The notes beneath the pieces are model-generated. The model did not search any database. It saw only the letters and a list, made by a program, of their open reading frames with translations, and was not told the DNA's origin. Shown here piece by piece: positions 5,566 through 45,629 of a stretch of 64,000 bases of DNA. Source of the DNA: Takakia lepidozioides. Lineage: Eukaryota > Plantae > Bryophyta. Both the position numbers and the translations under genes were made by a program. Position 1 is the stretch's first letter. Every line of letters starts with the position of its first letter. The stretch spans positions 15,562,001-15,626,000 of the forward strand of contig CM060731.1 of NCBI GenBank assembly GCA_030704615.1, written 5' to 3'.

Positions 5566-7998
5566 ACATTGATGACATCATCGTCTTTAGTGCTACGGTT
5601 GAGGAGCATGAGAGACACCTTCATGTGGTGTTTGAACGCTTGAGAGCGCATGGGTTGAAATTGCACCCTGGGAAGTGCAAGTTCTTCCACAACCAGATTG
5701 AGTATCTGGGCCACATGATATACCCTGGAGGATTGGGTGTTCAAAAGACGAAGGTGGAGGCCATTGCATGCATTCCACGCCCCATAGATGTTAGCAGAGT
5801 TCGTGCTTTCATGGGGTTGACAAACTACTATCGACGGTTTGTCAAGGGATTTAGTAGCATTGCAAGGCTCTTACTAAGTTGACCAAGGTGGATCAGGAGT
5901 GGCAGTAGGAGGAGGAGCAGGAGGAAGCATTTGAGGAATTCAAAGCTCGATTGACTTCTGCAGCTATTCTGAGGCGGCCTATTTGGGGGCGGCCTTTCCA
6001 GCTACATACGAATTGGAGTATGCTGGGGATTGGAGCAGTGCTCACACAGGTGGATGATGAGGGAAGAGAGTTCGTAGTGGCATATGCTAGCCGCTCAAAC
6101 AATGATGCCGATGCGAAGTATAGTTCTTATGAAGGGGAGTGTCTAGCTGCGGTATGGGCAGTGGCACATTTCAGATGCTACCTCTATGACAATCTTTTCA
6201 CCCTTGTCACGGATCACCAACCATTGAAGTGGTTGATGGAGTCAGACAAGCTTACAGGGAAGCTTTCACGATGGGCACTTATGCTTCAAGAATACGACTT
6301 TTAGGTGGTGCATCGAGCCGGTATTGTCAATTGGGATGCAGATGGATTGAGTCGTAATCCATGTACGAGCGAGCATGATGATACTGGAGCTCGGTGGCAT
6401 GGTGAGACGGATAAAGAGATGGTGCCAGGATGGCATGCATCTGCCTTTTTGTGCATCCTAGCAATGGGAGCTCAAGCTGGTCCATCCCATAACATTGGTC
6501 ATGTAGATGGTGTGCATGACAATCCGGAGATCAGTGAGGAGCTTGGTGGTGCTAAGGATGTGCATGAAGATGCAGCAGTGTTGGCCTACCTTCGTACTAG
6601 AGAGACAACAGCCAGTGTGACTGCTAAGGAGAGAGATCGGATCCTACAACGAGCCAAGAGGTTCAAGTGGGAGGGGACTCACCTACTCCGAATATGGGAG
6701 GATGGACGAGTGAGGATTGTGCCTCATCCATCACAACGAGCGCGATTGGTATGCCATGCCCATGAGGAGTTGGGACATTTTGGGATGCGGCGCATTCATA
6801 GTTTGCTGCAAGGACAGTACTGGTGGCGGGGCATGCACACGGATGTGCAACAGTTAGTGGCAAGGTGCATGGTGTGTGATAGAGTGCGAGCTTCTTTCAA
6901 TGCACCTACTCCACAATTGCATCATTTACCCATTATGGGTTTGGGCTATCGTTGGAGTCTTGACTTCACAGACCCATTGTCACTAACGATTCGCCATAAC
7001 AAGTATGTGCTGGTGATGGTGGAACATTTCTCCAAGTGGATTGAACTGGTGGCATTGCCTGACAAGGCAAGTGAGGGGGCTGCGTATGCATTCTTAGATC
7101 GAGTGCTTAGCCAATTTGGTGCTCCAGCCGAGGTACTCACGGACCAGGAGAGAGAGTTATTGGGGGAGTTTCAGGCTTTGTGTAAGCAAGCCTTGATAGA
7201 TCACCGCACTACTTCTCGGGATCATCCCGAGGCTGATGGTCTGGCAGAGAGGGTTGTACAAACAGTCAAGCGAGGCTTGTGCAAGTATGGCTTGCAGAAG
7301 GGACACTTAAGAGATTGGGACCTTCAGCTACCTTGGTTGGCCATGGGCTACAGGTTTAGCAAACAAACATCACTTGCCTCGTTCTAGCCTTATTTCCTTC
7401 TCTTTGGCCGAGAGCCAGATTTGCCTGCATCTAGACTGCAGTAGTTCTCAACCTTGATAATCCGGATGTATGGACACAAGCATGTGCCCAGCGGGCAGAG
7501 TTGTTCAAGAGAGTCATGCCTAAGGCTTTTGAGAACCTTGCTATTGCCCAACACCGAGACACATTGAGGTACGCCATTATACGTGGAGGGGGATATCGGC
7601 CAGGTGATCGGCGTTTCCACCCTGGGGACTATGTGTATCTACAGCAAACAACGTCTATGACTTTGGATGTCAAAGCAGGGCGTATGATTCTAAGGGTCCG
7701 GGAGGTGTTGCCTTCAGGAGTGTTGATTCTGGAGGGTTGAGATGGCATGGTATGGAAGGACCATGTGCGCAATTGTGCGCCATGTCACCTTCCACATGTG
7801 GATGGGAGGATAGATCCCAACCTTGCAGTGGTACCTGCAGGGTTGCGTTGCATGCTATGTGGGCAAACTGGTGGTGCCGCGACCATGTTGGTGTGTGACA
7901 AATGCTCAAGGGGGTGGCACATGGGATGCTTGACACCGCCACTTGAGGAGGTTCTTAGTGGAGAATGGTTGTGTCCACGATGCCTTGGACATAGGTAG
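5566..7998 (+). pseudogene. pol: Gypsy pol remnant (RT-RNaseH-integrase-PHD) with several stops and frameshifts
   Basis: ORFs 5625-5882, 5951-6304, 6305-7387, 7501-7740 and 7747-7998 are consecutive parts of one polyprotein. The C-terminal CMLCGQTGGAATMLVCDKCSRGWHMGCLTPPLEEVLSGEWLCPRC is a C4HC3 PHD finger. Confidence 0.92.
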
Positions 7999-10523: not shown

Positions 10524-12519
10524 TCAAGGATGCCTGCCGTTTTGTAGTTGCGACAAGATAGATGAGAAGCGGCGCTCATCGTGAGCCTCATCATGTACAG
10601 CGTTCTGCAGATCTTCTCGGAAACCTTCCAGCATCTCCACAACTCGAAGCACATGGCTGCACGTGAGTGGCTCAGAGGAGCTCTTAGCCCAGGTCTGTGC
10701 AGTCCGAATGCTGTTTCTGATCTCGCGACCATTCAGCTCATGCTCAGAAAACAAGTCCAGATCAAAATCGGTGAGGCCAGCGCGTCCAAGAAAATTCCCC
10801 CAAACCTTAGCGCGTTGTGCGGAGGAGAGGCGGTGATAGCGCAAAAACAAGGAGATTCGCGAGCAGAAGGCATCATCAAAAGTTGTGACACGGTTGGTTG
10901 TGAGGAAGAGCACACCCCGATAGTATTCAAGGAGGCGGAGAAAGATTCCAGTCATAGTGTTGCGCATTGGGTCACCACCTGAAGTGCGCTTCTCTAAATA
11001 GATGTCCGCCTCATCGAGGAGGAGGACTGCACGCCAGGAAGATGCAATGTCCAGGATCTGAAGGAGCTTCGATTCCAGTTGGTCTGCTGTTGCCCCCAAC
11101 TCTGAAGCACTGACAGACCAGAGTGGTCGGTGCAGCTTCTCTGCAACTGACTCAGCAGTAAGTGTTTTTCCTGTGCCAGGTGGACCGTAGCAGAGGAAGA
11201 CACAGCCTTCCCCCTTGTTGGATATGAAGTCTATCGGCTGAGTCCTGTCCGTTGTTGTGGCAAAGGTGTTGTCGTTATCAGAGGTGCTGTTTGTTGGCTC
11301 TGGGGATCCTACATACTGGGTTACTAACCCAAGAAGCATCTTCTTTTGCACCTCGTTATTCATCACCAAGTGCCGATCGTAAGCGTGGTCGTCAAATGAA
11401 ATCTCACTGAACCCCGTGACTTGGAAGCAACCCCATTGCTTGAGGCTGAAAGAGAATAAATTCAAGACGGACCAGGGAACCTTCGAAGTGCTTGAAGCAA
11501 TGAGGTTGCGTGGAGAGCTTGTAGAATTTCTTGCCATTAGCCAGAAACGCAGATTCCATCTGTTCCCTTTCGTCAACAAATCTCATTGGGCATACAGGGA
11601 GTGAAGTGAACTGGCGCTCATTCTTGAATTGTGGAATGGTACGCTCGACCATGCACTTGCGGTAGCTTTGGCCATTGTAGTCCATGACATCCAGTTCCAC
11701 CAGAAGTTTCTTCCCCTGCATGTCTTTGAAGTACCAGATCCCGCTAACGGTGGCGCACACCTGCTGACCAGACATCTCGCAATGGTAGTAGACCTTCTCT
11801 CCGGGGCAAAGGAAAGCCCACAGCAATTCCCAAGAGGTGGTGCCCTCGCGCAGCATCCGTTCGTAGTACACCAATGTGTCGTTGTATTCCATCTCCAGAA
11901 AGCGCATCAAATGACTCAAATGCAGCCTCGCAGCGGTCTCCCCTTCTTTGAGAGTAAAGTTACGTAGTGTGTCAATGGCGAGGAAGAGCTCTTGACCTTG
12001 GATTTTTGGCTTGTCAATAAACACTTCCTTGTTAAGTGGCAAGCAATTCTTCACAATTTCGATGAGGTGGGAGGAGAAGAGGGTGACCGAAACTGCATCG
12101 GGCCAGTCTTGTTCTCGATTGTAGACCACTTCGAAAGGACTTTGTTTCGACTTCTCTTTACCTCCACTGGTTCTCAACTTGCGCTGCTTACTCCAGGTTG
12201 CTTTTGAGTACCACTCGTCGTAAGCTGGCCACTCCCAGTCAGGATCCGTCACCTTCTTTTTCTCCTTTTTCTTCTTCTTCTCTTTTTTGTTCCCCTTCTT
12301 GTCATTCTTGTTCCTTAGTCCGCCAGGAGACTCTCCCTCTTCCTCTTCCTCCTCCTCCTCCTCTTCCTCCTCCTTCTCTTCCTCCTCCTTCTCTTCCTCC
12401 TCCTCTTTCTTCCCGCTCTTCTCAACCTTGGGCTTCCCCTGTCCTCTCAGGGTTCCCAGCTTGTAAGCTGAGCCCACCAAGCACAACACGAAAATCCCAA
12501 GGATGATCAGAGGATCCAT
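10524..12519 (-). pseudogene. Intronless AAA+ ATPase of the fungal-type family (N-terminal membrane anchor, acidic/Lys tract, conserved N-domain, AAA core), split by a frameshift near 11450
   Basis: Walker A GPPGTGKT, Walker B LLLDEAD, LRLLEYYRGVLFLTTNRV..FDDAFCSRI, lid LNGREIRN; N-domain SWELLWAFLCPGEKVY. ORFs 11404-12519 and 10524-11579 overlap in different frames. Confidence 0.85.
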
Positions 12520-14555
12520 CTCTCCAACACTCTCTGCAGCGGAGTGAGGATGACTAACACTCGGTACTCCTGTATCACTCTCCCAACTGAGCTGCCCCTT
12601 TCAAATTGAGAGAGAATTTTATACACACTGCATTGTATTGTTTGTACGCTGCAGTGGCTTGCTGTCCAAGCCAAACATCAGGCTCCGAACTTCCGCGTTC
12701 ATGGTCGGTACCAAAGCTGGCGTGACTTCCTGTGCACAAGGACTCGGTCAGACGAGCGAGCCCTGCAGATTCACAGTTTGACGAATCCGTCGGAGCGCAA
12801 TTGCAGAGAAGGCCATCTACCCCTCAACTGCCCACCTATAATTTGAAGTACTGGAAATTGAAAAACACACAAGTTTAACAACCCCTCCTCACTAATTTGA
12901 GGCTACAGACTACAGACCCACCTAGATTCAACCGTGAAATGAGTTCATGCATCTAGCTAACCAAAAATGATATGACGTTTCGCAAGGGTCAGGATTGCAT
13001 GTGGGTGCAGATGAAAACAAGGAAGGTCGAGATATCAGTCATCCCCCAAGGTGATCCTACATCCTTGAAATCGTATTTTTCTTCCATAAGTTAATCCAGG
13101 AGGCCGCCTGGGAGAGCTTGTACATGAAGTGACGTAATCACCAATTACCGCATATTACACATAGTCTTGACGTCCCACCGCTGCAGCTTTGCGGTCAGCA
13201 CTCCCCATTATATGAGGTAGAGTAGGTAGCCCAATGGTTGGGTATTTGTGCTTTGCTTGTGCATAACCTAGGTGATCTAGGGTTTAAAGTGTCCACTTTC
13301 CAACAAAAAGAAGTAATCCTTGGATGAGGAGACACTATAATCCAAGGTTCTTTGGGGAGGAGTCCTCTTTCTTTTCTTTCTATGATGCGGATTGTTTTCC
13401 TTGTGGCTCCTTTGCAGTGCCATTTAGGGGATTAGGTAGAGTCAAGGATTGGCACCAAAATATTTCACTTGTTATTTTGTTACTGTTTTTAATTTTTAGT
13501 TTCTCAAAAAAATAAACAGGGGACAGTGGCCCTGATAAAGTTTATTTGAAATTATTTTGGGGAAAAAAATTAAAACCCCTATTACACACCCCACATTAGT
13601 TATCATTTATGAAAGGGAGGTAGTCCTTGAAGACGGTATTGGCTGTCTTCTATGCATCATGTTGCAGTCAACGGAGAACATGTGGTCAAAGGACCTTACA
13701 CCATGGTAAGGCTCCCATTGGTGTGTTGTGCCGAGTCATGCCACTCAGTCTCACCTCCCCTTTATGTTTTCCCTAAGCAAGAGAGCCCATTGTGTTTCAG
13801 GCTTGTTAAAATTTGTTCAGAAAAATCCTGTTGGGTTTTGATGATCTTTGTTGCCCCCGAGTTCCCTCTCCAAAGAAGGGTGAGAGTCACCTAAGAATAT
13901 ATGAGGCCTCCTCAAGGAAGCGAAAATTATGGTGTCTCTTCCCCCCCAAGGGCTACTGCTATTGTGACATCCATCGGTGGATTGAACCCACAACAACTTC
14001 CGAGGTGTTATGTCGACCATTAGCACTAGGCTACAATTTGGTTGGACCGTCCTAAACTAACTCTAAGGCTCTAGAGGGAGGCGGGACCAGGGCCTAACGG
14101 GCCGTTTCTGCAAAACAAACAGTGCTCCCCACCTACTTGAAGTCCCAGAAGGTACTACGGCCACATACCATACCGACACATTAGAGGTTCACCCAACTAT
14201 GCACCCCTTGTAAGACCCAATTTCTCTATATTCTCTTTTCCTCTGTGAGCTTGGGTGCTAAAGCGGGGAAATAGCCAGTAAAGCACGCCAAGCTAGATGG
14301 GAAGGATCTCTCGCTAGAGGAGCCTCACAGGTGGGCCAACCAAATCACATGCAGGGGTATCAAGTGCAAATCATCCAAACACCAGGCACATCCAAATACA
14401 CTGTCTTGATCACCCAAAACATCCCGCGTTTGGCATAAGCCATCCGCTTTTTATATTAAGAAAATGGCTAATCTGGAATGGCAAATGGTGGCCTCTTATT
14501 GGCTGCCAGGATTTCTTTAAGTTTCTCCCACACATCAGCAGCTGTCAAAGTAGGT

Positions 14556-14684
14556 TACTGTTGGAATGAGACAAAGGCCTTGGCTAACTTTAGGTACATT
14601 TAATCAGCCATACCAACCACCCTACTTTTCATCCAGCTTACGAACAAAAGAGCATCTGTAATAGGTGGAATACTCCATCTTACA
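14556..14684. repeat. 129-bp terminal direct repeat, copy 1 (partner 36005-36133)
   Basis: TACTGTTGGAATGAGA...CCATCTTACA; 2 mismatches between copies. Confidence 0.95.
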
Positions 14685-15077
14685 TATGTAAGACCCGCCC
14701 ACGCCAATTAGGAGTGAGCTCCAGCGAGCTTCCGCAAGTGTATCAAAGCAAGGCCTACCGAGCCAAAAATCAATTTCAAAAAGAAAGACTAGGCATCCGA
14801 TAGGAGAGGGATGAAAAAACCTCTGGGGAAAACCTTACCCTACAAAGTGGGTGAAGGATAAAACCCCCAATAGGAAAAACCCCAATCCATACAATTGATG
14901 CAAGCTCATAAAAGCAGTTCTGTAGCTCTCATCTCTCTCACAATCAGATGTCTATTCAAAAAGACGAAAGCTAGCTGGTGAAGTCAAGCCAAGCCCAACC
15001 AAACAAAGCTAATGCAGCTCCACCACTGTACATAGCCAAGTTTTAAAAAGCAGAAAGCATGAATTCATGATCTGCAC

Positions 15078-18000
15078 TCATGCAGCACGGCCAGGGGTTA
15101 GAACAACACGACGGCCCTCTACGTTAATGCAAGTGAGATCAAAAACTAGTTTGCAATGCACAAGAGAATCAAGGTGGACAGTGTGGGAAAGAGGAGGAAC
15201 AGAGGGATGTTGAGGGAGCAGCCGATACTGTCTCCCCCGCAAGACTTCCGTAATAAGATATGGGCCCTCGATACGTTTGGTAGCCTTGGAAATGATCTTC
15301 CCTTGCTGAAGCCGCACACACACAGATTGATCCTGCAGAAATTCTTCTGAATAGCACACACGTCGGTTATAATTGCGAGCCTGAATCACCTGAGCTTTAG
15401 CTATGTTGGTTTTAGCAGAGGATATTAATTTTTGCCTCTCAGCACTCATCTCAACCAAGAATGCATCTCAATCAACAGGGTCAGTACTGACAGGAATCAA
15501 CGGAGTGTCATGCAAAGGGCTGTGAGCAAGTCTGTCATATACTAGCTCAAAGGGAGTATACCCGGTACTTGCTTGAACTGAAGTCCTATAAGCGAAAATC
15601 AAAACTGGAAGAGCCACATCCCAATCACCCAACAGAGAACCATTTTTCTCCATCATGGAACACATGGTCTTATTGAATCGCTCAGTCAGACCGTTGCACT
15701 AGGGATGATAAGGCGCCGTGGTTCGATGCTTTACCCCAAGATTGAAGCATATCACTTGCATTAACTGGTTGCAGAACTCTGTACCCTGATCTGTAAGTAT
15801 CTCAAGAGGACACGCGTGTCTGAATGATTTCATCAAAGAAAAACTGTGCGACTGCATCTGCATCCTTCGCGGCCAAAGGCAGGACCTCCACCCATTTAGA
15901 GAGGTAGTCCGTTGCTATGGCTATGTAGGAGTGGCCCTTCTCTGTGAGTTTAAGAGGTCCAACAAGATCTAAGCCCATCCTATCAAAGAGACCAGTGACA
16001 GGTATAGGCTGCATGGGTAATGAAGCGCGAGCCCGAGGAAGCAATGTCTTGGCATGACATTCAAACACATTGAGAAACAAAGGAGGCAACGTCCTGATGC
16101 ATACCCTTCCAGGTATATTGTTCTTGCAAACGCTTGACAATTTTTGTCATGCCACGGTGACCAGCAAAAGGTGAGGTGTGATATAATTCAAGCAACTCTG
16201 GAATAGAGCTCCTATTAGGAACATCCACGGATTTGATAAGGCCATCCAAGACAATTTTCTTCAACAATTTACCTTCACGTTCCACATGACAGGGAAGGTG
16301 ATAGTTAACTTGCATTTGAAGTGTCTTGGAAATACCTGGGAGTTGTGTGCCGGCCTTGCACTTGTGGGGAAGGGCTGCGATCAGGGAGTCATCCATGCCT
16401 ATCATGCACAAAGCCAAAGAAACAGTGGGTTAATAGCAGGTAATCAGAAGTGTCCGCCTCTGTGGTCTTCAAATAATATAACCCTGCATCGCATCTGAAT
16501 CAGGCTTACATATGAAGGTAGGCTGGGCATGAAGTACAGGTCCTAAGGGAAGTATCCATAAGAAACACGTGGCCATGAAAAAGAAGAAGGGTACAACTGT
16601 AGTAACCAGGCAGCATTGATCAAGCAAATAGGACCAATCCAGACACGCAAGTACAAAAGTGACCATCTCAATGAACATCAAAAGTGATCAGATCCCCTGC
16701 AGGTTTAACGGCATAGGGCAGCTCATCCATCAAGCTAAAAAAGGATGCATGTAGATATAAATCAGGCAGTGAACGATCAGGATTCTGCATGCGAGCCAAA
16801 TCATCCAGAGTCGTGTAAGGAACATGGGTCTTGGTCTCTCCCCTAGTAAGTGCATCAGCGTTGCCGTTTTCTTTCCCCTTCTTGTAAACTATATCATATT
16901 CAAAACCCTGTAGATGCAAAGACCATCTAGCAAGCCTGCCAGATAATTCACGAGGAGTTGTAAGGGCCTTGAGAAGGAGATGATCGGTCTCCACGGTGAA
17001 ATAACAACCATGCAGGTACTGCCTGAAGTGTTTCACCCCAAAAATTACAGCCAACCCCTCCTTGTTAGTAATACTATAATTTTTTTCATGTTTATCAAAT
17101 TGCCTAGATGCGTAAGCAACGACATGTTCTCTACCATCTCGCACTTGGCTAAGAATTGCAGAAACAGCCATGTCACTGGCATCTGTTTGCAAAAGAAAGG
17201 GAAGAGAGAAGTCTGGAAAAACCAGCACTGGAGCAGTTGTGAGGGCTATCTTCAGCTGTTCAAAGGCCTTGGTCTCAGGTATGCCCCAATGAAATCGAAC
17301 ATCCTTGCATAGAAGTATGAACAATGGACCGGCCATGTTAGCAAAATGGAGGATAAATCATCTATAATAAGAGGCAAGTCCAAGAAAGGCACGGACACAA
17401 TGTTTGTCATGAGGAAGAGGGAAGTCCCATACTGCCTGGATTTTGCTAACATCAGGTTTGATGCCTTCCCCACAAAGGATGTGACCAAGAAATTTAAGTT
17501 CTGCCATGCAGAAATCGCACTTTTTGGCCTTAACCTTGAGGCCTGCAGCTCTGAGACGACACAATACACGCTGCAGGTCAATGAGGTGAGAATCAAAATT
17601 AGCAGAATAAACATTTATGTCATCAATGTATACTAATGCACATTCCCATCTCAGATTGCCAAGAACCACATCCATAAGCCTTTGGAATATTGTTGTGGCA
17701 TTACAGAGTCCGAATGGCATGGTTTCGTATTGATAGATGCCATATCTGCATGTAAAGGCCGTTTTCTCTTTAGATGCTTCTGTCAAAGAGACCTGCCAAA
17801 AGCCAGAAGCTAGGTCAAGTGAAGAGAAAATTGTGGCTCCACTAAGCTGATCCAGGGTCTCGTTAATTCTTGGTAAAGGATATACATCCTTCTTAGTCAT
17901 GGAATTGAGCCGTCTGAAGTCAACACAAAACTTGGTGGAACCATCCTTTTTGGCCACTAACACGATAGGACTAGCCCAAGGTGACATAGATGGGCGAATG

Positions 18001-19298
18001 ACACCAGCATTCAACATTTTCTTAATTTCTTCATGAACCACTGCTCTCTCACGAACTGACTCGCTGTAGGCATATTGTTTGACTAGATTCCCATCAGTGA
18101 CAATCTCATGATTCAAAATACTGGTCCGACCAAGATCATGAGATCCTCTACTGAACACAGACAGGTTTCTTCGAATCAAAGCATGTAACTTAGCCAATTG
18201 AACCTTAGTTATATCACCCACCTGGATCTCGGCCAACACTTGAGCAAAGTGCTCCTCTTGCTTGGTGGTGAGAATAATGTCATCACTGACTGCAACAATG
18301 TTGGTCATGGCAATAAGGCTGTCCATAGGGCTGTCTACAAGTCCAATGTCATGAAAATTGAGAGCAGGCTCTACAGATTGAATTTCAGTCAAAGGCAAGG
18401 CAGTGAGTCTAGCCATAATCTGTCCCTTCTTGATTGTGACCATCATACGCTCAAGATTAACAAGGAGTAATCGGATTTCTCCTCTGTACCCCCTGTCTTA
18501 AACCCCAGAAGCCACCAAGCAGTGTTTCTGCAAAGATAATTTCTTCCAGCCTTCTACTTCCATGTACATGTCCTTGGGGCAAATAAAAGCCAGACCTATG
18601 GGGGCCAAGATTTGTAACATTGCAGGCAAATCAATATCATGATGAGCCCTCAAAAGTACGGAATTATTGGGAACAGGAAGAGGGGCTAGTCCAGTCTTCT
18701 TACCTGGTCCAGGCAAATGCCTTTGAAAAACGGTGGTGGCCGACTCATTGTTGAAATTAAAGAATCTGGTCCAGTTGTATGTGTTACAAGCTCTTTGGCG
18801 TATTTCGTGAGCAGCAGCCTGCATCTGAATAAGATGCCAAGTGGAACTCCCAGCCATAATACGGACAGAGTTCAGGTTGACTTTATGCCTTGTACCATTG
18901 CCACCACTCAAGGTCATGACATTCGTATGTAAATTGATTTCTGCCCTGGCTTCCCACATCCAATCTAAGCCAATTAGAAATTGCTCTCTCATAGTGACAA
19001 TTCCAGTCACCGTGACCACCGTACCAGCAATTCCAATAGGCATGGTTACAAGCCCTAACGGCTTATATTTGGTACCATCAGCTATAGTAACCTCCAGCCC
19101 TTTGGCAGACACTAATTTTAATCCCAACACTTGGACAACATGTAAAGGAACAGCAGAGACTGTGCATCCAGTGTCAACAATGCACGAAAAAAACAAATGC
19201 CCTACATGGCATTGAGTAAGTAGTGGGTATATACGAACCTTCTTCCTGGGTTTAATCACTTCTGTATGTAGCAACTTGAAAGTATCAGAAACAAGAAC
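15078..19298 (-). pseudogene. pol: Gypsy pol: aspartic protease, dUTPase-like, RT, RNase H, integrase (decayed)
   Basis: IVDTGC (~19170); GV*DRGYRGEI and KGQIMARL (~18405-18505); SPWASPIVLV, YPLPRI, MPFGLCNA, YIDD (17619-17630); QTDASD, ETDH, NADALTR; GHRG, DLVGPL, TGYTPFELVY. Confidence 0.93.
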
Positions 19299-20763
19299 GC
19301 TATGTCCACATTTCCCTGGATTATGCCTGCACGAAGCAAGGCCAACTGCATTCAACACCCTCCACTTTATTATAGTATTGCAGCAACATTCAAAGCACTT
19401 CAATTTGTATCCATCGAGAACATCTAGGCTAGAAAAAGACATTGTTGCAGCATAACTTAGGAAAGTACTTCTCCCCTTCCACTACACACATGAAATGAAA
19501 GAAGCCAACCAACAGCATACCATCCAAGAAAATATGAAACCAGCCAAGAAATGAGCCAATATATGCAGTGAAGGTCGACACTAAATGAAACTTATCCAGC
19601 ACTTACATTAGAGGAGGGAAACTGAGTTTTACCTCCATAAGCTTGCCCACATCAAATTTGGGAGCTTTCAAAAAATTTCTTTTCCGGTTGAATGAACTTG
19701 ACTACAAGTTCCTTCAAATCACAAGTTTGAGCTTCACACACAATGAACTTACAGGGATTGAGCTTCCAATGCGAATCAGAAGTCTTATATTGATAGCATT
19801 GTTGTAAAACACATGGACCAACAATGACAGTCTCTGGAATGACATATAGTATAGTTTCATGTAGTATGTCGCACACAACTATGTACCAGTGATGTGGCTT
19901 CTTTGCCACTTGCCTCCTTTGCCCATTCAGCCATCTCCACATTGCCACGGACTCTGCATGCACCACGCAAGGCCATCCACAACATCCTCTGGAAATGCTA
20001 TAATCAGCCATCTCCACATTGCAATGGATTCTGTCCGCACCAAGCAAGGCCAACTGCATTCCGCAGCCTCCACTTTATTATGGTATTGCAGCAACATTGA
20101 AAGCACTTCAATTAATATCCAACAAGAACATGTAGGCTGGAAAAGAAAAATTATTGCAGCAGAACTTACGTTCGTATTCCTCCCCTTCCACTACACACGG
20201 GAAATTTAACCCCTGGTACCTCAACATGCTCCCCTTCAAGCTCTTCCAACTCACCAACATGTCGCTCTATCTTTGCTCCCACCTCCTCACTGTATTTGAT
20301 CCCCATGAAAGCAGCCAAGCAACAAGATACCAGCCAAGAAAACAGCTAATGTATGCAGTGAACGTCGACACTAAACTGAAACTTATCCAGCACTTAAATT
20401 AGAGGAGGGAAGCGAGTTCTACCTCCATAAGCTTGCCCACATCAACTCTAGGAGCTTTCATAATATTTACTTTGTGGATGAAGGTGTTATATATAGGATA
20501 CATACTGGCTGATATCTTCTCAATGTCTTTTCCAATCACCTCTGGATGAACTTGGCTACAAGAACCTTCAAATCACAAGTTTGAGCATGCACAATGATCT
20601 CCCTCATCTTCCACCGAAGCAAGTCGAGACATGATAACACTACTTACATCAGGCTGCATGTCGTGAAACTGGTGAAGGACCTGCATGGAAATACTGGCTG
20701 CATACAATGTTTTGCAGTGTTCCTGACAAGCAACCACCATTGCAACCGTCATGTTCTATGGAA

Positions 20764-24991: not shown

Positions 24992-27900
24992 CTAATCTTC
25001 ATCATCCTCATTTATGTCTGGGTCATTGCATGTATCATTGTCTTCACCACAGACTTGATCTTGTCCAAGGGTTGGCTGAACATCATCACCACGTATACGG
25101 GGTGCTCGGAGGTACAAGGAGGCCACCTGCTCTACAGTAACCGGTACTGCTCGGCTGCATGTTGGGCCATCAGTAACCAGAGTCTCCTCTAGTCTTTGTG
25201 GGGCTAACAATCCTTCCACTTCCGCCACATCATCATTATCAATTGATATGTCGCAAACCACTCTACGTGCTCGGGGGCTCTTCTCCAGGACGACTTTCCA
25301 CCCCGGCTCCTTCACACAATAAAAAAAAAAACACTTGATCAACCTGGCCAGGAAACACAAAAGGTTGCTTAGAAGGTAGAAGCATACGGTTAAAATTGAC
25401 CAGTGTGAAGCCATCATCATCCCGCTTCATTGACATAGGTTGACGACCCACGCGACGCGCCCGTACCCACGAACACAAAAACACCATGTTTTGGCTGTGT
25501 TTGGCCATAGTCAATTTGCAAAATCTCCCTTATAAGACCCACATATCTTGTAGGTTCCTCCATGTCATTGCCTGAATTGTTGGTAATGGGCTGCTGCTGG
25601 AAAACAGATGAGACTCCACAATCAAAAGACACCATACTTGTTGTGTTCATGCCGGGGGATGTAACCCTGTAATGGTTACCATACGCTGTCATACTCTTGA
25701 ATGACAGGGCAGTAAATGATGGAGGCCTTGAAAGATCCAGTAATTCCTCACGTGTTGTAGGATCAAGCCCATCTGATTGAATTGAGAGATGATCCCGTAC
25801 ACCTTGAGGGAGCCAAACAGCAAATGGAGGACATGGATGCAAATCAGGAGGGTACTGAATTGCCGTGGGATTGCTCATGCCTTCCAGCCCTTGCTCCTCA
25901 CGAAACAAGCGTCGTCCGGCTTCTATCCGTGTGGACTCTGCTTCATATATCCTGTCACAATCCGAGGGTCAGCCAGGAGATTGACAGAGGTGGCGTGGAA
26001 GATATGAAAAGACACAATATGCCAACTAATGAGAAATGACTAAAACTTGGAAATCTAAATGTCAATGAAGTAGATTTCTTACCTCAACATGACTGACAGA
26101 CGAGGATGGTTCTGAATGTTGTACTCCTGTACAATATCACGCAGGTCATTCAATTTTCGGGCTTTAGAACTTCCTTCCACAACTTCACGTTCCACAGTTC
26201 TGCCTCATCTGCATCCCACACCATTCGTACACTTCCATCAAATCCTGCCATATACTCTGTGCAAACACCCAATGCTTCTTCAAATTGGTATCCTTTTGCC
26301 ATGCTCCCCTCGGGCCTTGCCATGTTTCTTACGTAGCCCTTCATATCTTTCATTGCCCGCTCCATGGGGTACATCCAACGAGATGCTACGGGCCCGCATA
26401 AGTACAACTCGTCCACTAGGTGAACAACCGGATGTGTCATCACATCAAAAAATGATGGTGGGAACTCATTCTCTATAAGACACAGAGTGACAACTGCTTC
26501 AGTTCTCAATTCCTCATACTCTAGATACAGGATTCACCACTTTTGTACACAACTTCTTAAATACACGAGAATGGCCCTGCGAGGACCACTTGCCATGAGC
26601 CCACGGATAGCAAGCGGTATAATTTGCTGCATGAGCACATGATAGTCATGTGATTTCATGCTAGACAATTTCTTCTTCACCACATGCTTTTTGAAAGCTG
26701 ATGCGTAGCCTGTTGGCACTTTCAAGTTCTGCACAATCTCCAGAAAGACTTGTAACTCAGCCTCAGTGAGGACATAAGGGGCAGGAGGCATAATTAACGT
26801 ATCTGCTCTGTCAGGAGCCACAATTCCGGGCGCATCCCAAGTAGCTCCAAATCACGGCGAACTTTCAATGTGTCTTTCTCACCAAAGATAGTTTTAATAA
26901 TATTTTCAGCCAAGTTCTTCTCGCAATGCATTGCGTCAAACGTGTGGCGGATGATGAGACCCTACAAAATGAACACATAAGTAATTGAGCATTTACTCAT
27001 CACAATTTAAACAGAAAACGCAAAAATGTACACAGCCAATTTAAAGGCCATGAAGGAATTGCCTCCCAATAAGGTAAAACATATAAAATTGACAATCGCT
27101 TAGCTCCATGAGTTTTTGCTGGGTCTGTCCTGCTATCTGGCGTCCCTCCGTTTTCCACCCATGCAGTGCGAGCTGTTGCAAGCTCCTTGATTTGTGTTCC
27201 AGTCTGCGTTTTTGGAGGAGTTCCATGCTCAGTAGCGCCATTGAACATTCTTGACCTTCTATATGGATGATTGCGGGCCAGAAATCTTTGGTGGCCTAGG
27301 AAAACAATTTTCCCACATGTGTGTAACTGCTGTGAAGTCACCCCGGGTCCATAAGCTGGACAACCAGCATAACCTTTCGTCACTTGACCTGAGAGCAAGC
27401 CATATGCTGGGTAGTGATGGATTGACCACATCAACACTGCCCTCAGTGTGAATTCGCGTTGACCACGAGGACGGGAAACATCATGAGCTGCAATCCCTCT
27501 CCATAGTTCCAGTAGCTCTTCCACTAGGGGCATCAGGTAAACATCTACGTTGTCCGAGGTAACAGACTCCTTACCAGGAATCAGTAGCGCTAACATGACA
27601 AATAACTTTTTGGTCATTAACCACGGAAGCAGATTGTAATTGACCAAGAGAACGGGCCATGTGCTCCAACTGGTGGATTGAGCTCCATAGGGATTTACAC
27701 CGTCTAAGGCCAATCCAAATCGCAGAGATCGTGGCTCTGCAGCAAAATCCTCAAATGTGGTATCAATGTGTCTCCATGCTTTGCTATCAGCTGGATGTTG
27801 AACCAACCCATCATGGCTCTTATGTCTGTCGTGCCATGTCATGAGGTTAGCGATCGATTTACATCGGTACATACGTTTCAACCTTGGAATGACAGGGAAG

Positions 27901-29134
27901 TGTCGCAATACTTTCTTGGGCACACTTCCACGACCTGGAATGTAACGGGAACTGCGGCACACTGGGCAAATGTCTACATTCTCATACTCCCCACAGAAGA
28001 GTACACAACCACGCTCACAAGCATGTATCATGGTGTACTGCAATCCCATCTTGGCAATCATGGTTTTTGCTTCATAGTGAGTTTTCGGCAATGACTTCTC
28101 TTCAGGCAAAAAACTCTTACACAACAATCCCAGAAACTCATCCACAAATGCATTGGTGCACTTGTGGGTAGTGCATGCGTTCAGCAACGTCAAAGTTGCT
28201 TGCAGCCGGCTGATCGAGCACCCTTCAAAAAGTGGACATTGCGACTATCGGAAGAGTTTATCATACTTGGGATCAACGTGCAGGTGAGCATTCTCATCAA
28301 ATTCATTGTCTCCGGAATCGTCGAGGTCGTCGTCATGATCGGCAAATGTGTGATCGGTTCCACCATGAATGGGGTCCTCTCTGTTTGCATCTGCAAAGAG
28401 AAACGCTTCCTACAATACACAGTGGATTTCTACCTCCAATCCACCACCCTCATATGCGTTCTCTGTGACATTGGGCTCCCGTTGTGCTGCAGGGCCTTTG
28501 TCTTCATCATCTGAATATTCACATCCCTGCACCCCAATAGTCATCTTGTGAGTGGACCAACAACGATGTGACACTTGTTCATATTATGACATGGGAGGCA
28601 CGGTGACGTTGCAGTGATGCAGTCATATTTACGTATGTATCTTATGAATATACACCCAATCAAAACACGACATTTGTAGCCATTGAAGTCATAGTTGCAG
28701 TCACTTAGTTAGTCATATATGACTACATGACTACACATGACCAATGAAAACATGACATGTACATTAATTAAAGTGATAACGGAAGTGACGTAGTCATAGT
28801 CACGTCTGTATCTTATGACTTCTTGACTACAATCACCCAACGAAAATGTCGACATGTGGAGAAGATGATCGTTGCATTCAAAATTCAAACTAAAGTGCTA
28901 AAGGGAAAGTGGCGATCGTACCGGAAGAGAACAGTGTCGGAGAAGAGGATCCCTCTCGTGTATCATGTAATGATTCCTCACTGTTTCCGACAACAGTAGT
29001 TTTCCTCCATGACACTCATCGCAGTTGCATAGCATTTTTGTATGCCCATTCCTTGTGGCATAAGCTTCTTCCATTCGCCATAGACGATCATCTATTCTAC
29101 GCCTACGCATCCGGTCGTCACCTGCACTGTACAT
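24992..29134 (-). pseudogene. CACTA TnpD-like transposase (transposase-associated domain, Transposase_21, DUF4218, DUF4216), spliced and decayed
   Basis: MLCNCDEC...VRNHY; IHACERGC, RHFPVIPRLKR, GLALDGVNPYG, WSTWPVLLVNYNL; KSHDYHVLMQQ, FPPSFFDVMTH, RWMYPMER, RPEGSM; YVGLIREILQIDY, PFVFPGQVDQVFF. Confidence 0.93.
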
Positions 29135-30606
29135 GCTTTGAACGTCACCCCTTCCCTCTTTGCATGCTACGCACAGTGCATTGTCTCTTGTTTTGCACCA
29201 GCTGCCAATGTACTATTTCTATATTTATAGTATACTATAAGTATCGTTTCTGAGTGTCCATGGTGAAGCGGAAGGTCTTCGAAGTGACAGTCCCTCTCAC
29301 TGAGTACGAGAAGTTCCGAGAGCACCGGATTGCTGCCATAAAGGAGGTGGAAGCAACGTTCAAGCAGTCGATAGATGGGTGAGTTTAGTTCCTGACTTTG
29401 GTTACCCACCCACTAAACTTGCGATTCGCCTTATCCTCTGACCTTCCTACAGCTCTCATAAGCTTCATAGCACAAATGGGGGCGAGTAGCTGCGACTTGT
29501 ACAAACAGAGAGGCAAACAACATGTAGTGAGTGACGATTAGGTTTGAGGAGGGTGTGTCATTAGGCGGGAGATGTCCGCCGTCATTCGTGGGCAGCCATT
29601 ACGTCCTGGTAGGGTGCGGCTGTGGTTCAGCGTAGGCTTAAGAGTATTAGGGTATGTATGCTTGCATTTGTTTGTGATTGTTTGAGAGGGAGGTCATGGA
29701 GGTATTTGTGCAGGCTTGCGGGAGCGAAACGCCCTCGCAAGCCACGCGCTCCGAAGGAAAAAGCTAGGGATCAAAGTCCTGCAAGGCAAAGTGCCAGACT
29801 GAAGACAATGAAGACTACGATTCTGTATGAGGGCTCTTCTGAGGACGATGAGGACGATCCACTCCTCCCACGCCAGTGTGAGGCGAGTGCGTCGTCGGCG
29901 GATGCCACGGCGAGCCGAGGAGAACATGCCCAAGCTCATGTCGCAGGACAAAAACGCCCATCATCTACACTATGAACACCTTCTCCGTCTGTGGGTTATA
30001 GTTCTTCACAATGACCATGATTCAAATTATGTATGTTTTTGGTAAAATCACGAAGAGATAGGGTATGGTAAGATCATGAAGAGATAGGGTATGTCTGTCA
30101 AGACAGGGAAGTTGGACAATGCAGGGATCAGCCAAGGCACAATCACAAATGATTTCCACTAGACAAGTTGAAGTGCCAAAGGCACGATGTCAGCCCAATG
30201 TAGACTTCAGGTGTGTTCAAATTCTTTGCCCCATGAAACCAACGTCCTGGTACTAAGCTACAATGGCTACTTATAGAGATACTTGGGTTACTTATGCACC
30301 CAGAATATCAGTAAAACTTGGAGGGATACTTCTCATGGACCCATCAGGTTTGTCCCTTTGAATTCTTGCTATGGATTTCAGGAACACCCCATACCTAAGA
30401 GGGTTCAAAAATGTACTAGAAGGACATCATTGGGGCCAATCAAATTTGGGAGATTTACTGCCCAAGATCATACTGAGTTTTGGGTAATCTTGTCTTTACA
30501 AATCATATGTGCTTCCAGTTTGTTATCTTGAATTCAAGGATTTGCTTCTTGCTGCCTATATGTATGTGTAATCACCCACATTGTACTGGGGGAATTTCTT
30601 TTCAGG

Positions 30607-33111
30607 GCAAGCACAAGCGCACTGGATCCACGATCCCTGCTGCTAGCAATGGAGATGGCGCCCACAAGAACGCAGGAGGTGGCCATAACTCTCCCATCGT
30701 TTTGGGTTCTGTGCCACCAGTACCCCCACCTTATTATGGTATGCCTGAGTACCCACAGTCTGGCACTCAGTATGGTCAGGGTCAATATGGTGCTCCTCCA
30801 TATGGGCAATATGGCCAGTATCCTCCTCCACCATATTTGCCACCCCCTAATAGCTATGGGGGTGGCAGACCACCGGAATATCCTCCTGCTTATGGACAGT
30901 ATGGCCAGTATGGTCCTCGGCCTTCTGGCCAACAGCCATGGCCACCAGTCCCTACTTGGCAGGATCCTACTGTGAATTCTCATGTGCGTACGGAGGTCTC
31001 TGAAGGAGGGGAGGGTGCCGTTTCAAAGAATGATAGAACCAATGCTTTAAGGAGGGCTAATAGCTTAGCCAAAATTGAAGCTGCCAAGGTAAAGGAAGAG
31101 AGAATAGTTGCAGGTCTTCCTCCCACGGTGATTGTGACGAACCTCAAAGGAGCCCCGTATGGTCAGACCCGAAATGTATGGCACGTTGCCCTTAAAGGAC
31201 AGGCTTATCGCAAGCTAGATTGTTCCCTTGCCATCAACAACCAACCTGATGAACTTGTATACGAAATCAGAGATCACCTGGCTAAGCTATTTTCATATAC
31301 GCCACACAAGTTAAAAGACTTTCACCTAAAACAAACAATTGGCAGAATAATGAAGATCCAGTGTTATGAAGCACATACTGCGTGGTTGGGTGGTAAGGGG
31401 AAACCCATTACTGTATCTGACGAGGTATAGAACAAGCTTGTAAGTTACTGGCAGACAGAGGTGTTCCACAAAGTGTCGGGCAACATGAAAAAGGCAAATG
31501 GTGCAATTCAGAATCCTACCAAGATTGGCCGTGGTGGGAAGGCAATGGTGGAAGCACGCTTGGTAAGTGGCATCATCACGACTCTGTATTTTGTTCCTCA
31601 TTGAATTGCTATGTGTATATAGTCAGCCCTCACATTGCTTACTGACTTGTGGCATGGGTTTGTTTGTGGCATGGATTAATTAATTTGCAGGAAACCCTAT
31701 CAGGGTGCCCTCCTACATTATATGAAATTCAAGAGGGTTCAGTGTCACGGTTGTCAGCTGGGAGTGACAGGCGGGTAAGTATGTTTTCCAAGTTTGCTAG
31801 AGTGGTTGCTGCATCATAGGTTGCTAGGGTTTTTTTCAAGGCTTTTGGCCTGGGTTTTCTTTCCAATGGTTGTTCATGCTAGGTTTTTTTTGTTTGATTC
31901 ATACTTGGGCAAGTTTTCATGGATTGGCAGGAGGGAAGTCTCGCATATTCTACAGTAGTTGGCAGGATGGATGGCTTGGACAAAGTGGTGGAATCACAAG
32001 GACGTGACATGGCAGACTTAAAATTACAGATGCAGAGCATGATTGAGTACCAGAAAGCCATTGTGGCCAGATTGGGGATTAATCTACCAGGCGCATGACC
32101 AGTGACATCTACGATGGATGCGTCTGCTGTGACAATATCAAAATGTTTGGAATCCCAATTTCAGACGGTAACTGGTGCTCACTCTAAGCCCTTATGTCTT
32201 CTTGTCACTGATGATCATTTGAATTTGACCGAACAACAGCAGAATACAGGGAAGGCCAGCTGTGAGGTACACGTGGAAATTCAGCCATTGCCACGTACAA
32301 AGGCAGTAGCAATCCAGGGGGCAATGGTGACAGAGCCGCCTGGCACACCGGATTCTGGTATGCAGGTATGTGGGAGTTTAAATGGGGAGGAAGATGCAGA
32401 CGGGGACAAAACAAACAAGCATGTTGCTTTAATTTCTCCTACTCACATGTTGAAGCCAAATGACAGTTTACATCCTGGACCAGCGAGGAAGCATTTACTA
32501 ATTCTGGACTTAAATGGTCTGTTATGTGAATCTTTTCATTTTGCTAATGGGCCTGCATCCCTTCCCAAAGGTTTTGTGGGGAAGATGTGTGGCAAGAAGA
32601 TGGTAATTTGAGACCACGCTGTTATGACTTTTTGCAAAAGTGTTTTGAACACTTTGAGGTGGTGGTGTGGTCTTGTTACCAAGCTCGCAACTTCTTCCCA
32701 ATGGTGGACTATATTTTTGCAGCCCACATTAAGCTGGTTTTCCAGTGGGATGCCCTTCACTGTGATGAGGATCCAGTCCTCTCATGCCGTAAGGGGTCTG
32801 ATTCAAAGCCATTATATTTCAAGAACTTGTCTAGAGTGTGGGCAGACTGGCCAGAATGGACTTATGAGGACACTGTTCTTGTTGACGACACACCAAGAAA
32901 GGCGGCAAACAATCCTCCCTTCAGTGGGATTTTTCTAGAGCCATGGAAAGTGCAACCAGATTCACCAACTGATGAGTATCTAACAGAGGTGTTGTGGCCT
33001 TTCTTGTGGAAGGCATCGAAAGTTGCCAGTATTCCCAAGTTTTTGGATTCTCAGCTTGTTTTCGGACAACAACCATACAACACTGCTACTGTGAAGGTAC
33101 AAACATTCTGA
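30607..33111 (+). pseudogene. CACTA TnpA-like gene (Transposase_24-like) with C-terminal FCP1/NIF-like HAD domain; exons ~30607-31562, 31691-31774, 31931-33111
   Basis: V*NKLVSYWQTEVFHKVSGNMKKANG...GRGGK; GT-AG phase-0 introns; coiled-coil exon in frame with ORF 32102-32611; LLILDLNGLL, RP...FL, VVVWS, KNLSRVW, TVLVDDTPRKA. A probable further upstream exon lies near 29715-29950. Confidence 0.72.
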
Positions 33112-36004: not shown

Positions 36005-36133
36005 TACTGTTGGAATGAGAGAAGGGCCTTGGCTAACTTTAGGTACATTTAATCAGCCATACCAACCACCCTACTTTTCATCCAGCTTACGAACAAAAGA
36101 GCATCTGTAATAGGTGGAATACTCCATCTTACA
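36005..36133. repeat. 129-bp terminal direct repeat, copy 2 (5' end of the minus-strand Gypsy)
   Basis: Matches 14556-14684; ends TCTTACA followed by TSD CCCT. Confidence 0.95.
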
Positions 36134-36852
36134 CCCTTTTCTACCCAAGAGGTAATACCGTAACATACCATACCCACACACCCATTGCTATCTTTAGACC
36201 CAGAGGGTACTACTGCCACATACCATACCGACACATTAGGTTATCCCAACTATGTACCCCTTTCTTATAGGTGGGTTGACTAAAAAAGGGTAGTTACCTA
36301 ATGAATGACATCCAACATAGGTACACACGGACATAGAGATGTAAAACTCCATAAGAAATAACCTGTGCACAAAAAATAATAATAACATAGCAAAATTGAA
36401 GTGCTTATTCTCAGGTAAATCTACGTCTTTTGGCACTCTAAAGTGAGCTTTTTTTTGTTGTCAGGGTTAAAGGCCGTGTTGTAAATTGACTTGGGATTGG
36501 TGCAGGGAATAAATTTCACCAGAGACAAGTTGATGGAGGCTGGTGCGGAAATGGTAGAGTTTGATAGAGTCACATGTGGATGTGAAAATAACATACAATT
36601 GCATGTTGCGGATTTTCTGCATTGGCTTCACAAAGAAGCGACCCAACCACATTAAGCGCACTTGCTACGCACAATTTCAAAAATGTTAGACAATTTCTAG
36701 GGCTCTTCTACAAAATGATGCAATTCTTAGAAGTTGGATGGCAGAAATGAAATGTGGACTCTTGTCGAAGCAAATTGTAAACTTATGGTGTCACTTGACC
36801 CTTCCTTCTACCCTTGTGAAATCCAACACATTAAGCCCTCCAACTCAACCAC

Positions 36853-44054: not shown

Positions 44055-45002
44055 GTCACAACCCAGCTCAATGATATTAAATATATGTGATATTGATTGC
44101 AGTTTGATGTATAAGTTGGAGTTCTCATGTTGTGCGCCAATTTGGCGAGAGATATGACATTGGACTAGCCATATGAACATGAACTGGAGAAACAATGATG
44201 TATCAATCGAATGGTTTCAATTGATACAATCCATTCCATTTGTATCGATTGAGCTCCAAAATGGAATGGTTTCAATATGAATTGACCAAGAGAAGGAAGT
44301 GAAAAATAAAATAAAATATAGATAAATAAAAATATTAAAAAAGAAACTAGAAGGAATGGGTGCAAGGTCTGAAAGAGCACAATTGAAAAGACATTATCTA
44401 AATGCTTTTATTAGTATTCCGGAAGTCAAGAGAGAGAGGTAGTATAGAAGAAGTTTAATACATATTCTTAACAAATATTAATCAGCCCAATGAACATTGA
44501 AGATAATGCAAGATGTATCAATATTTGTAGCTAATTACTAATAAAATCTTCCATCATTTTCAATAGAGCATAAAGATCCCTACTAAGAAGGGAGAAAAAA
44601 CAGCAAAATAATGGACATCCAAATTATTTGAAAGGGTACGACCATTATGAAACAAACAAAAACACCTTAGAGATGGTGAATATGTGAAAATCTATATTCT
44701 CTATCAAACAAAGCAGAAGCTTTTATTTGCTAATAGAAGAAGAAAAAACTCACCCCCAAAATATATTTAAAGGAGTCGGAAGCAAGGAGGGTACTAAGAC
44801 TCACAAACTATAAATCAGAAATCAGAAATATATATATGACATAGGATCTTCTAATTACATGGTGGGCAAACATATTTTAAGGTATTGTATTACATTCAAC
44901 ATATATATCCAACATGTAGAACTCCATGAGGATCAAGATATGTCAAAAAGAGTTATTATAATTGCTTATAACTAGCAAATAAAATCGCGCAACATAGGTA
45001 GT

Positions 45003-45629
45003 ATGCCAACAAAGAAATATGCTCAAGGGATAAAAAAAAAAGAGGGTCCATTGGCTACTAGCCAAGGTAAGGTTGACATGAACTATCTTCGGAAAGAATT
45101 TACTCGAGCAGTTAGTGCTACAATTGATGCCAAGCTTTTTGGAAATCACCGACTCTTGCAGGAAGAACCGGATATAAACCTCAACTTTGCTAAAATCAAA
45201 TGTAAATGCAAGGTCAGAGGTAGAGAAACATGTTCAATCACATGCCCTTGTTATATAACAAGGAGAATGTGTGGGCTAGAATGCAATTGTCATGGATTTG
45301 CTGTAACAGTTTTGTCACTATGCCCTAAGTTGGCCATTCGTGATGGTGCGCTTGGAGAGGAGCTCTACACCCTAGAGGATCTTCCGAAACATAAATTGGC
45401 TTTTGTAGTGTGTGGGTACATTATGACAGAAGCCGAGTTCCACCACGCACTAGAACAGGATGGAACTCTATGTGTTCATCGCTATGCAATTATAGTCTCT
45501 TGGCCAAGCTTCAACAATGGTCGTTTGGGTGAGCTTGAAAAGGTCAAATATGTGGTTGACACGTCCAAGCATAGCACAGGAAAGGCGAATCACAGTTGTG
45601 AGCCTAATATAATGGTTAGAGCATGGTAA
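45003..45629 (+). pseudogene. Divergent Cys-rich pre-SET plus SET-domain (lysine methyltransferase-like) ORF or exon
   Basis: CKC...CSITCPC...CGLECNC, then GEELYTLEDLP, GYIMT, YVVD and NHSCEPN; possible GTAAG donor at ~45626; possible C-terminal remnant (AEYNDTYFRGFC) at ~45943-45980. Confidence 0.7.

What the first reader, a model, noticed from the sequence alone, without database searches (positions are those of the whole stretch)
18400..18670. dUTPase-like domain between protease and RT in a plant Gypsy element
Seen: reading through the TAA at 18498-18500 gives LRAHHDIDLPA...APIGLAFICPKDMYMEVEGWKKLSLQKHCLVASGV*DRGYRGEIRLLLVN...TIKKGQIMARL, in frame with both PR and RT. Established: GVID.DYRGEI and KG..IAQL are trimeric dUTPase motifs 3 and 4; dUTPases are known in several retroviruses and only sporadically in LTR retrotransposons. 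Motif 2 (RSG) is replaced and motif 5 is not evident, so this may be a pseudo-enzyme. Both Gypsy families in this window thus carry a different nucleotide-modifying cargo in the same PR-RT slot.
Basis: partly seen in the sequence, partly recalled or inferred. Interest (0 to 1): 0.7.

Follow-up and report, generated by a model that had tools for sequence, protein, structure and literature searches.

The report
Conserved pseudo-dUTPase in bryophyte Gypsy retrotransposon
A broken copy of a jumping gene, likely from a moss or related plant, carries between two of its enzymes a conserved dUTPase-like domain that lacks four of the five catalytic motifs, so it likely acts as a non-enzymatic module, and fainter traces of the same domain sit in that spot in many related jumping genes.

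Summary
Confirmed, on the minus strand. A dUTPase-like domain (Pfam PF00692, 38.9 bits, cut-off 22) lies in frame between protease and RT of a decayed, 5'-truncated Ty3/gypsy pol. The host is likely a bryophyte. The TAA is not family-wide. The motif loss is: variants among other copies are 21 of 29 synonymous (expected share 0.28), and none touches motif 2. In 10 related domains (median identity 27%), motifs 1, 2, 4 and the motif-5 P-loop are gone, while motif 3 is kept (Asp 9 of 10, Tyr/Phe 10 of 10). It is therefore a selected pseudo-enzyme, not a working 'nucleotide-modifying cargo'. The protease-RT linkers of 49 of 87 nearest RT relatives hold a motif-less version of the same domain (0 of 87 reversed controls; HHalign to true dUTPases 97%), and Pfam missed it in 3 of 3 tested. 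Best guess: a non-catalytic trimeric pol module that still binds deoxyuridine. dUTPase in this slot is known from fungi, rotifers and planarians. This scan found it before in other genomes, twice with a motif-less second copy. My searches found no land-plant case and no motif-3-only form.

The parts
18333..18671 (-). dUTPase-fold pseudo-enzyme domain of pol (Pfam match 18369-18653)
18651..18665 (-). position of motif 1; Leu in place of the Mg-linked Asp
18540..18548 (-). position of motif 2; W-K-K in place of R-S-G; no amino-acid variant listed in other contigs, one synonymous variant
18480..18506 (-). motif 3 (G-V-stop-D-R-G-Y-R-G): catalytic Asp and sugar-selecting Tyr kept
18498..18500 (-). 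in-frame TAA; most other contigs read a sense codon here
18405..18425 (-). position of motif 4; Arg and Gln both replaced
18339..18353 (-). relic of the motif-5 arm: hydrophobic-Gly where true dUTPases have Phe-Gly, without the Arg or the Ser-Thr-Gly P-loop
18957..19193 (-). aspartic protease of pol
   Evidence: PF13975, E 4.4e-05
17475..17954 (-). reverse transcriptase core
   Evidence: PF00078, E 1.5e-35
17358..17360 (-). second in-frame stop (TGA), between the RT core and RNase H
16902..17288 (-). RNase H
   Evidence: PF17917, PF17919
15200..16216 (-). integrase (zinc finger, core, GPY-like motif), split over three frames
19298..19299 (-). 5' break point of this copy; upstream lies another repeat, and gag and the 5' LTR were not found
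   Evidence: (loose ends)

Best explanation
This is a dead copy of a multi-copy Ty3/gypsy family, likely from a bryophyte, whose pol carries between protease and RT a conserved dUTPase-like domain lacking motifs 1, 2, 4 and the motif-5 P-loop, so it likely cannot hydrolyse dUTP and likely serves as a non-catalytic, probably trimeric module that is predicted to still bind deoxyuridine. Shown: position, homology, family-wide motif pattern, purifying selection. Inferred: in trimeric dUTPases the base and sugar are held by the motif-3 hairpin and capped by the arm's aromatic residue, while Mg and the phosphates are held by motifs 1, 2, 4 and the P-loop. This lineage kept the first set and dropped the second. 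The domain would be cut out of, or travel with, Pol into the particle. There it would cluster Pol and hold dU nucleotides near RT, much as the inactive but essential BIV protein keeps its motif-3 Asp. It looks like a half-way state between intact dUTPases and a motif-less version of the domain found in the same slot of many Gypsy relatives.
For: PF00692 38.9 bits. Model with a 90-row alignment pLDDT 88.1, Foldseek and VIA hits to trimeric dUTPases (Z 13.9, rmsd 2.9, 112 aligned). Variants among other contigs 21 of 29 synonymous against 0.28 expected, p 7e-7; differences near-fixed in the others, i.e. largely this copy's own, are 9 of 10 non-synonymous. Identity to relative P0122: domain 42%, protease 36%, flanking spacers 21% and 26%. 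Motif census in 10 clade members: motif-1 Asp 0 of 8 aligned, motif-2 Arg 0 of 9, motif-4 Gln 1 of 10, motif-3 Asp 9 of 10, Tyr/Phe 10 of 10. The arm Gly is kept in 9 of 10. RT and RT+RH trees put window, P0122, P0124 and P0012 in one clade (SH-aLRT 98 and 97). Active-site division of labour and P-loop loss costing about 720-fold: PMC12524310, PMC4827122. BIV precedent: PMC4261571.
Against: No binding or activity was measured. The fold model is partly circular, because most of its 90 rows are true dUTPases; the single-sequence model failed (pLDDT 34.2). The closest intact relative, P0122, has Asn at the catalytic Asp. Tyr, Gly and the downstream Asn may be kept for structure alone: the Asn is kept in 71 of 76 motif-less linkers. 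Several of the 10 clade members are fragments or near relatives of each other. Twelve of the 29 variants come from one diverged contig (9 of 12 synonymous; the other 17 give 12 synonymous). Expression is not shown.
Confidence: 0.45

Rival explanations
1. The domain is a ligand-free scaffold or spacer: only the fold (and perhaps trimer formation) matters, and motif 3 survives because the hairpin is structural.
For: The motif-less linkers keep the fold signature without any motif (HHalign 97.1%, E 6e-11; motif-3 Asp in only 11 of 76). P0122 has Asn for the Asp.
Against: At 27% median identity the clade keeps Asp 9 of 10 and Tyr/Phe 10 of 10, which the motif-less linkers lose, so the fold alone does not need them.
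Confidence: 0.25
2. The domain assembles with host dUTPase subunits into mixed trimers, giving motif 3 to a composite site. It would either tether a partly active host enzyme to the particle or damp the host enzyme.
For: Active sites are built from motif 3 of one subunit and motifs 1, 2, 4 of the next, and monomeric herpesviral enzymes use a motif-3-only first domain (PMC12524310). Tandem dUTPases among the hits have middle domains that keep motif 3 but lack RSG (P0008, P0014, P0027, P0063). Sites work independently in hybrids (PMC4827122).
Against: Those tandem middle domains in P0008, P0014, P0027 and P0063 also keep a full motif 5, which this clade lacks. At most one of three sites of a mixed trimer could be complete. 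The element holds no second domain supplying motifs 1, 2, 4, 5 in this window.
Confidence: 0.15
3. The domain is still an enzyme, with weak dUTPase or a changed nucleotidase activity, using new basic residues (D-R-x-Y-R, Arg at the motif-4 Gln) to hold phosphates.
For: The catalytic Asp is kept in 9 of 10. Arg follows it in 8 of 10, and Arg or Lys stands at the Gln position in 7 of 10. dUTPases can cut without metal (PMC12524310).
Against: Residues found in 53 of 53 true dUTPases in the set without being selected for (motif-1 Asp, motif-4 Gln) are missing. P-loop loss alone costs about 720-fold. The dCTP deaminase profile scores 17 bits, under its cut-off of 27.
Confidence: 0.1
4. An active dUTPase that decayed neutrally in this one copy after insertion.
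For: This copy is dead: two stops, frameshifts, 5' truncation. Its own differences are mostly non-synonymous.
Against: Other copies share W-K-K and the motif-1 and motif-4 states. Nine relatives from other records lack the same motifs.
Confidence: 0.05

Closest known systems
dUTPase-bearing fungal Gypsy elements: Postia placenta PosPlaTy3-5, Phanerochaete chrysosporium and Tuber melanosporum (Tmt1) elements (PMC2864245, passages)
   Same: dUTPase domain inside pol, between PR and RT in PosPlaTy3-5
   Different: Those are described as chromodomain-bearing fungal elements. Here the host is likely a bryophyte, no chromodomain was found, and only motif 3 is kept. Their motif states were not checked here.
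Bdelloid Juno/Vesta/TelKA elements (PMC5408684), planarian Burro/GYPSM1 (PMC6431247) and the PNMA-related vertebrate metavirus (PMC11011659); passages
   Same: dUTPase or dUTPase-like domain in a Ty3/gypsy pol, between PR and RT in the first two
   Different: Animal hosts. The passages read do not describe a motif-3-only form or a widespread motif-less form.
Bovine immunodeficiency virus dUTPase-related protein (PMC4261571, abstract and passages)
   Same: Pol-encoded dUTPase relic lacking some motifs, keeping the motif-3 Asp, conserved, with no detectable activity yet needed for replication
   Different: BIV's is 74 residues and lies between RT and IN in a lentivirus. This one is a full barrel of about 115 residues between PR and RT.
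First domain of herpesviral monomeric dUTPases (PMC12524310, passages)
   Same: dUTPase barrel that contributes only motif 3
   Different: There a second fused domain supplies motifs 1, 2, 4, 5. Here none was found.
Dioscorea bacilliform virus polyprotein dUTPase (BFVD hits)
   Same: dUTPase in a plant reverse-transcribing element
   Different: It is a badnavirus (recalled), annotated as dUTP diphosphatase, and not an LTR retrotransposon.

Membership tests
Homotrimeric dUTPase (PF00692) | dUTPase profile and beta-barrel fold | tested here: met
   38.9 bits against cut-off 22; Foldseek E 7e-08, VIA Z 13.9, rmsd 2.9, 112 aligned (model built with true dUTPases in the alignment)
Homotrimeric dUTPase (PF00692) | motif 1 Asp | tested here: not met
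   Leu in the window; 0 of 8 aligned clade members against 53 of 53 true dUTPases
Homotrimeric dUTPase (PF00692) | motif 2 R-S-G | tested here: not met
   W-K-K; no amino-acid variant listed in laid contigs; Arg in 0 of 9 aligned clade members
Homotrimeric dUTPase (PF00692) | motif 3 Asp and Tyr hairpin | tested here: met
   kept in the window, around the stop; Asp 9 of 10, Tyr/Phe 10 of 10
Homotrimeric dUTPase (PF00692) | motif 4 Arg and Gln | tested here: not met
   Ile and Arg in the window; Arg 0 of 10, Gln 1 of 10
Homotrimeric dUTPase (PF00692) | motif 5 P-loop-like arm | tested here: not met
   only a hydrophobic-Gly relic
Homotrimeric dUTPase (PF00692) | homotrimer | not tested
Homotrimeric dUTPase (PF00692) | hydrolysis of dUTP to dUMP | not testable with these tools
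   needs an enzyme assay
Ty3/gypsy LTR retrotransposon | pol order PR-RT-RH-INT | tested here: met
Ty3/gypsy LTR retrotransposon | gag and paired LTRs | tested here: inconclusive
   copy cut at about 19298; no LTR pair in self-comparison
Chromodomain-bearing dUTPase Gypsy elements of fungi | chromodomain after integrase | tested here: inconclusive
   no Pfam chromodomain in three frames of 15000-16200, but the copy is decayed
Herpesvirus-type monomeric dUTPase | second fused domain with motifs 1, 2, 4, 5 | tested here: not met
   one dUTPase-type hit in six frames of the window; one stretch in P0122
dCTP deaminase (PF22769) | profile above curated cut-off | tested here: not met
   17 bits against 27

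The most novel reading that the evidence does not exclude
A catalytically dead dUTPase fold is an overlooked standing domain of pol across a broad group of Ty3/gypsy elements. It is hidden in what is treated as the PR-RT linker, and this bryophyte clade is the intermediate that kept only the uracil and deoxyribose pocket. The scattered 'captured' dUTPases between PR and RT would then be survivors or refills of one ancient slot, and the dead fold would have its own role in particle assembly or uracil handling.
Probability: 0.5. Interest if true: 0.7.

Novelty: new variant of a known kind. Interest (0 to 1): 0.5.

Why it matters
dUTPase between PR and RT is known but called rare in retrotransposons, and my searches found no report for land plants. 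The added value is that the domain is selected while inactive. That makes it a retrotransposon parallel to the unexplained BIV protein, and gives a small soluble domain on which non-catalytic roles of the dUTPase fold can be tested. If the motif-less version is as widespread as the 49 of 87 sample suggests, the standard four-domain picture of Gypsy pol is missing a conserved fifth module in a large part of the group.

Tried and rejected
No whole genome was held for the window, so copies were seen only as short contigs. A word-based homolog search on the domain found none among 394 candidates. A metagenome scan gave 327 pattern matches and no confirmed relative. Single-sequence folding failed (pLDDT 34.2). 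The complex-prediction tool and the protein atlas were not available, so trimer formation is untested. No RNA holder was listed; the two runs guessed to be RNA hold contigs of the family, but this shows no transcription. LTRs: repeats at 14141-14684 and 36005-36262 are short fragments of another repeat, not an LTR pair. I suspected a further domain in the long RNase H-integrase interval, but Pfam and PDB gave nothing. Capture from the host: the 10 clade domains fall apart from 47 others, including plant dUTPases (SH-aLRT 97, quick tree of short rows, long branches possible). Host names for relatives: the 30 clusters looked up gave none for the Gypsy proteins, apart from one member labelled as a bacterium, likely contamination. 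The motif-1 and motif-5 columns for the linker group are alignment artefacts and were not used. Both RT trees are quick trees; the careful searches did not finish. Earlier-findings look-ups by place, sequence and a second word set were empty.

Full report
Observation. The finding lies on the minus strand. One reading frame carries protease, a spacer, the domain, RT and RNase H, with stops at 18498-18500 and 17358-17360; integrase follows in shifted frames. Read with X at the stop, the domain scores 38.9 bits on Pfam dUTPase (cut-off 22, E 9e-10) and matches trimeric dUTPases in the PDB. A model from a 90-row alignment has pLDDT 88.1 and matches dUTPases by Foldseek and VIA. That model is partly circular, since most rows are true dUTPases; the single-sequence model failed.

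Host and element. The FPA-like gene at 37929-39197 has its best hits in Sphagnum (304 bits, 55%) and Physcomitrium (295 bits, 52%), then liverworts, then lycophytes. The host is therefore likely a bryophyte, probably a moss (inference). The copy is cut at about 19298, where other contigs continue differently, and no gag or LTR pair was found. In two runs of one sample, 166 and 158 contigs were laid on 1.3 kb, most of them under 95% alike, so this is a multi-copy family (summed depth is not a copy number).

Decay or design. At the TAA, 4 to 5 contigs per run read a sense codon and one contig of run X4 matches the window, so the stop is not family-wide. I classed the listed differences in 18400-18670 (40 of 41 rows plus four, stop codon left out). 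Of 29 minority variants among other contigs, 21 are synonymous against 0.28 expected (p 7e-7), and 23 are at third positions. Of 10 differences near-fixed in the others, 9 are non-synonymous. All 3 differences seen only in other studies are non-synonymous. No amino-acid variant is listed at W-K-K; differences close to contig ends are filtered by the tool. The family thus kept the protein under selection in its non-canonical state, and this copy decayed afterwards.

Relatives. Among 115 hits in 1.84 billion representatives, the five best, and three further hits, carry the same degenerate motif pattern; where flanks are present (P0003, P0005, P0006, P0007, P0012) they are Gypsy protease or RT. 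A pol search added P0122, 47% identical over the PR-domain-RT region. In these 10 domains (window included; identity 14-66%, median 27%): motif-1 Asp 0 of 8 aligned, motif-2 Arg 0 of 9, motif-4 Arg 0 of 10 and Gln 1 of 10, motif-3 Asp 9 of 10 and Tyr/Phe 10 of 10. The Phe-Gly of motif 5 survives as hydrophobic-Gly. The 53 true dUTPases used for comparison were chosen by motifs 2 and 5, so only their motif-1, -3 and -4 counts are unbiased. Against P0122 the domain is 42% identical, protease 36%, the spacers 21% and 26%, and RT 68%. The four clade members with RT group together (SH-aLRT 98 in a 122-row RT tree, 97 in a 38-row RT+RH tree; quick trees). An element with an intact dUTPase (P0228) lies in a weakly supported sister group (82). 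Hosts of these relatives are unnamed.

A wider pattern. Of the 120 pol hits listed, 118 lie outside the 10-domain profile, and 87 had a locatable protease end and RT start (31 dropped). Their linkers score above 5 bits in 49 of 87 cases with the clade profile and 33 of 87 with a true-dUTPase profile. The controls gave 0 of 87 reversed and 0 of 435 shuffled. A profile of 76 linkers aligns to true dUTPases at 97.1% probability (E 6e-11, 88 columns), while reversed, shuffled and protease controls stay under 1%. These linkers lack motif 3 (Asp 11 of 76). Pfam reported no dUTPase in the 3 tested at E up to 1. About 15 short-linker relatives in one branch score at background, so the domain is not universal. 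That many of these elements come from animals is my recollection, not a call result.

Mechanism. In trimeric dUTPases, motif 3 of one subunit binds uracil and deoxyribose, motifs 1, 2, 4 of the next hold Mg and the phosphates, and motif 5 closes the site (PMC12524310, passages). Removing the P-loop costs about 720-fold in rate, and Asp-to-Asn abolishes catalysis but not binding (PMC4827122, passages). The clade keeps the nucleoside side and drops the phosphate side. I infer a non-catalytic module that still binds deoxyuridine (0.45). The rivals are a ligand-free scaffold (0.25), mixed trimers with the host enzyme (0.15), an altered enzyme (0.10) and decay of one copy (0.05). Trimer formation and binding are untested.

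Literature. dUTPase between PR and RT: Postia PosPlaTy3-5, with dUTPase elements also cited for Phanerochaete and Tuber (PMC2864245, passages); bdelloid rotifers, where it is called rare (PMC5408684, passages); planarians (PMC6431247, passages). A vertebrate metavirus with dUTPase is noted in passing (PMC11011659, passages). Inactive but essential BIV protein: PMC4531489 (sections 7, 8, 11) and PMC4261571 (abstract, passages). PMC2774666 and PMC2238898 (passages) and PMC13524379 (no dUTP match) added nothing. Ten searches, judged from listings and the passages above, showed no land-plant LTR element with dUTPase, no motif-3-only form and no widespread motif-less form. The library lacks most subscription journals and Repbase reports, and I did not read supplements (the dUTPase tree of PMC2864245 may bear on origin). 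Earlier notes of this scan report the PR-dUTPase-RT layout in other genomes, two of them with a second motif-less copy.

The other Gypsy family (about 50.5-57.5 kb, plus strand) has a C5 methyltransferase between PR and RT (E 6.5e-10), a kind described from Klebsormidium (PMC5890265, abstract and passages). It has no dUTPase-type hit.

Verdict. The domain is real and conserved, and most likely inactive. The layout is known. A bryophyte host, a selected motif-3-only state and a link to a widespread hidden domain make it a new variant. Interest 0.5.

Noticed in passing
window 50500-57500 (+); partial second copy 5566-7957: Gypsy family with a C5 cytosine methyltransferase between protease and RT (Pfam E 6.5e-10), like the Klebsormidium elements; the second copy covers only RT to integrase.
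   Followed up: partly
window 10524-12600 (-): Two overlapping ORFs with DUF7025, AAA and a 'fungal AAA+ lid' match: a fungal-type AAA+ gene in a bryophyte-like window, possibly transferred.
   Followed up: no
window 24995-33111: CACTA transposase (27000-28244, -) and DUF4218 (26150-26533, -), with an NIF-type phosphatase ORF nearby (32548-33111, +).
   Followed up: no
window 37929-39197 (+): FPA-like SPOC-domain host gene, about equally distant from Sphagnum and Physcomitrium; used to place the host.
   Followed up: yes
window 16200-16900 (-): The RNase H-integrase interval is about 230 codons with frameshifts, against about 100-125 residues in P0178 and P0166; no Pfam or PDB match. It may hold another domain.
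   Followed up: partly
window 18670-18950 (-): A spacer of about 80 residues between protease and the domain keeps an aromatic pattern (Y/F-x-W-x-x-F) shared with P0003 and P0122; role unknown.
   Followed up: no
proteins P0008, P0014, P0027, P0063: Tandem triple dUTPases whose middle domain keeps motifs 3 and 5 but has lost RSG, suggesting composite active sites.
   Followed up: no
run X1, joint 18313-18789: One contig skips 475 bases spanning the whole domain, an in-genome copy lacking it; a neighbouring comparison for selection tests.
   Followed up: no
window 44976-45629 (+): Weak SET-domain match (E 0.0036).
   Followed up: no
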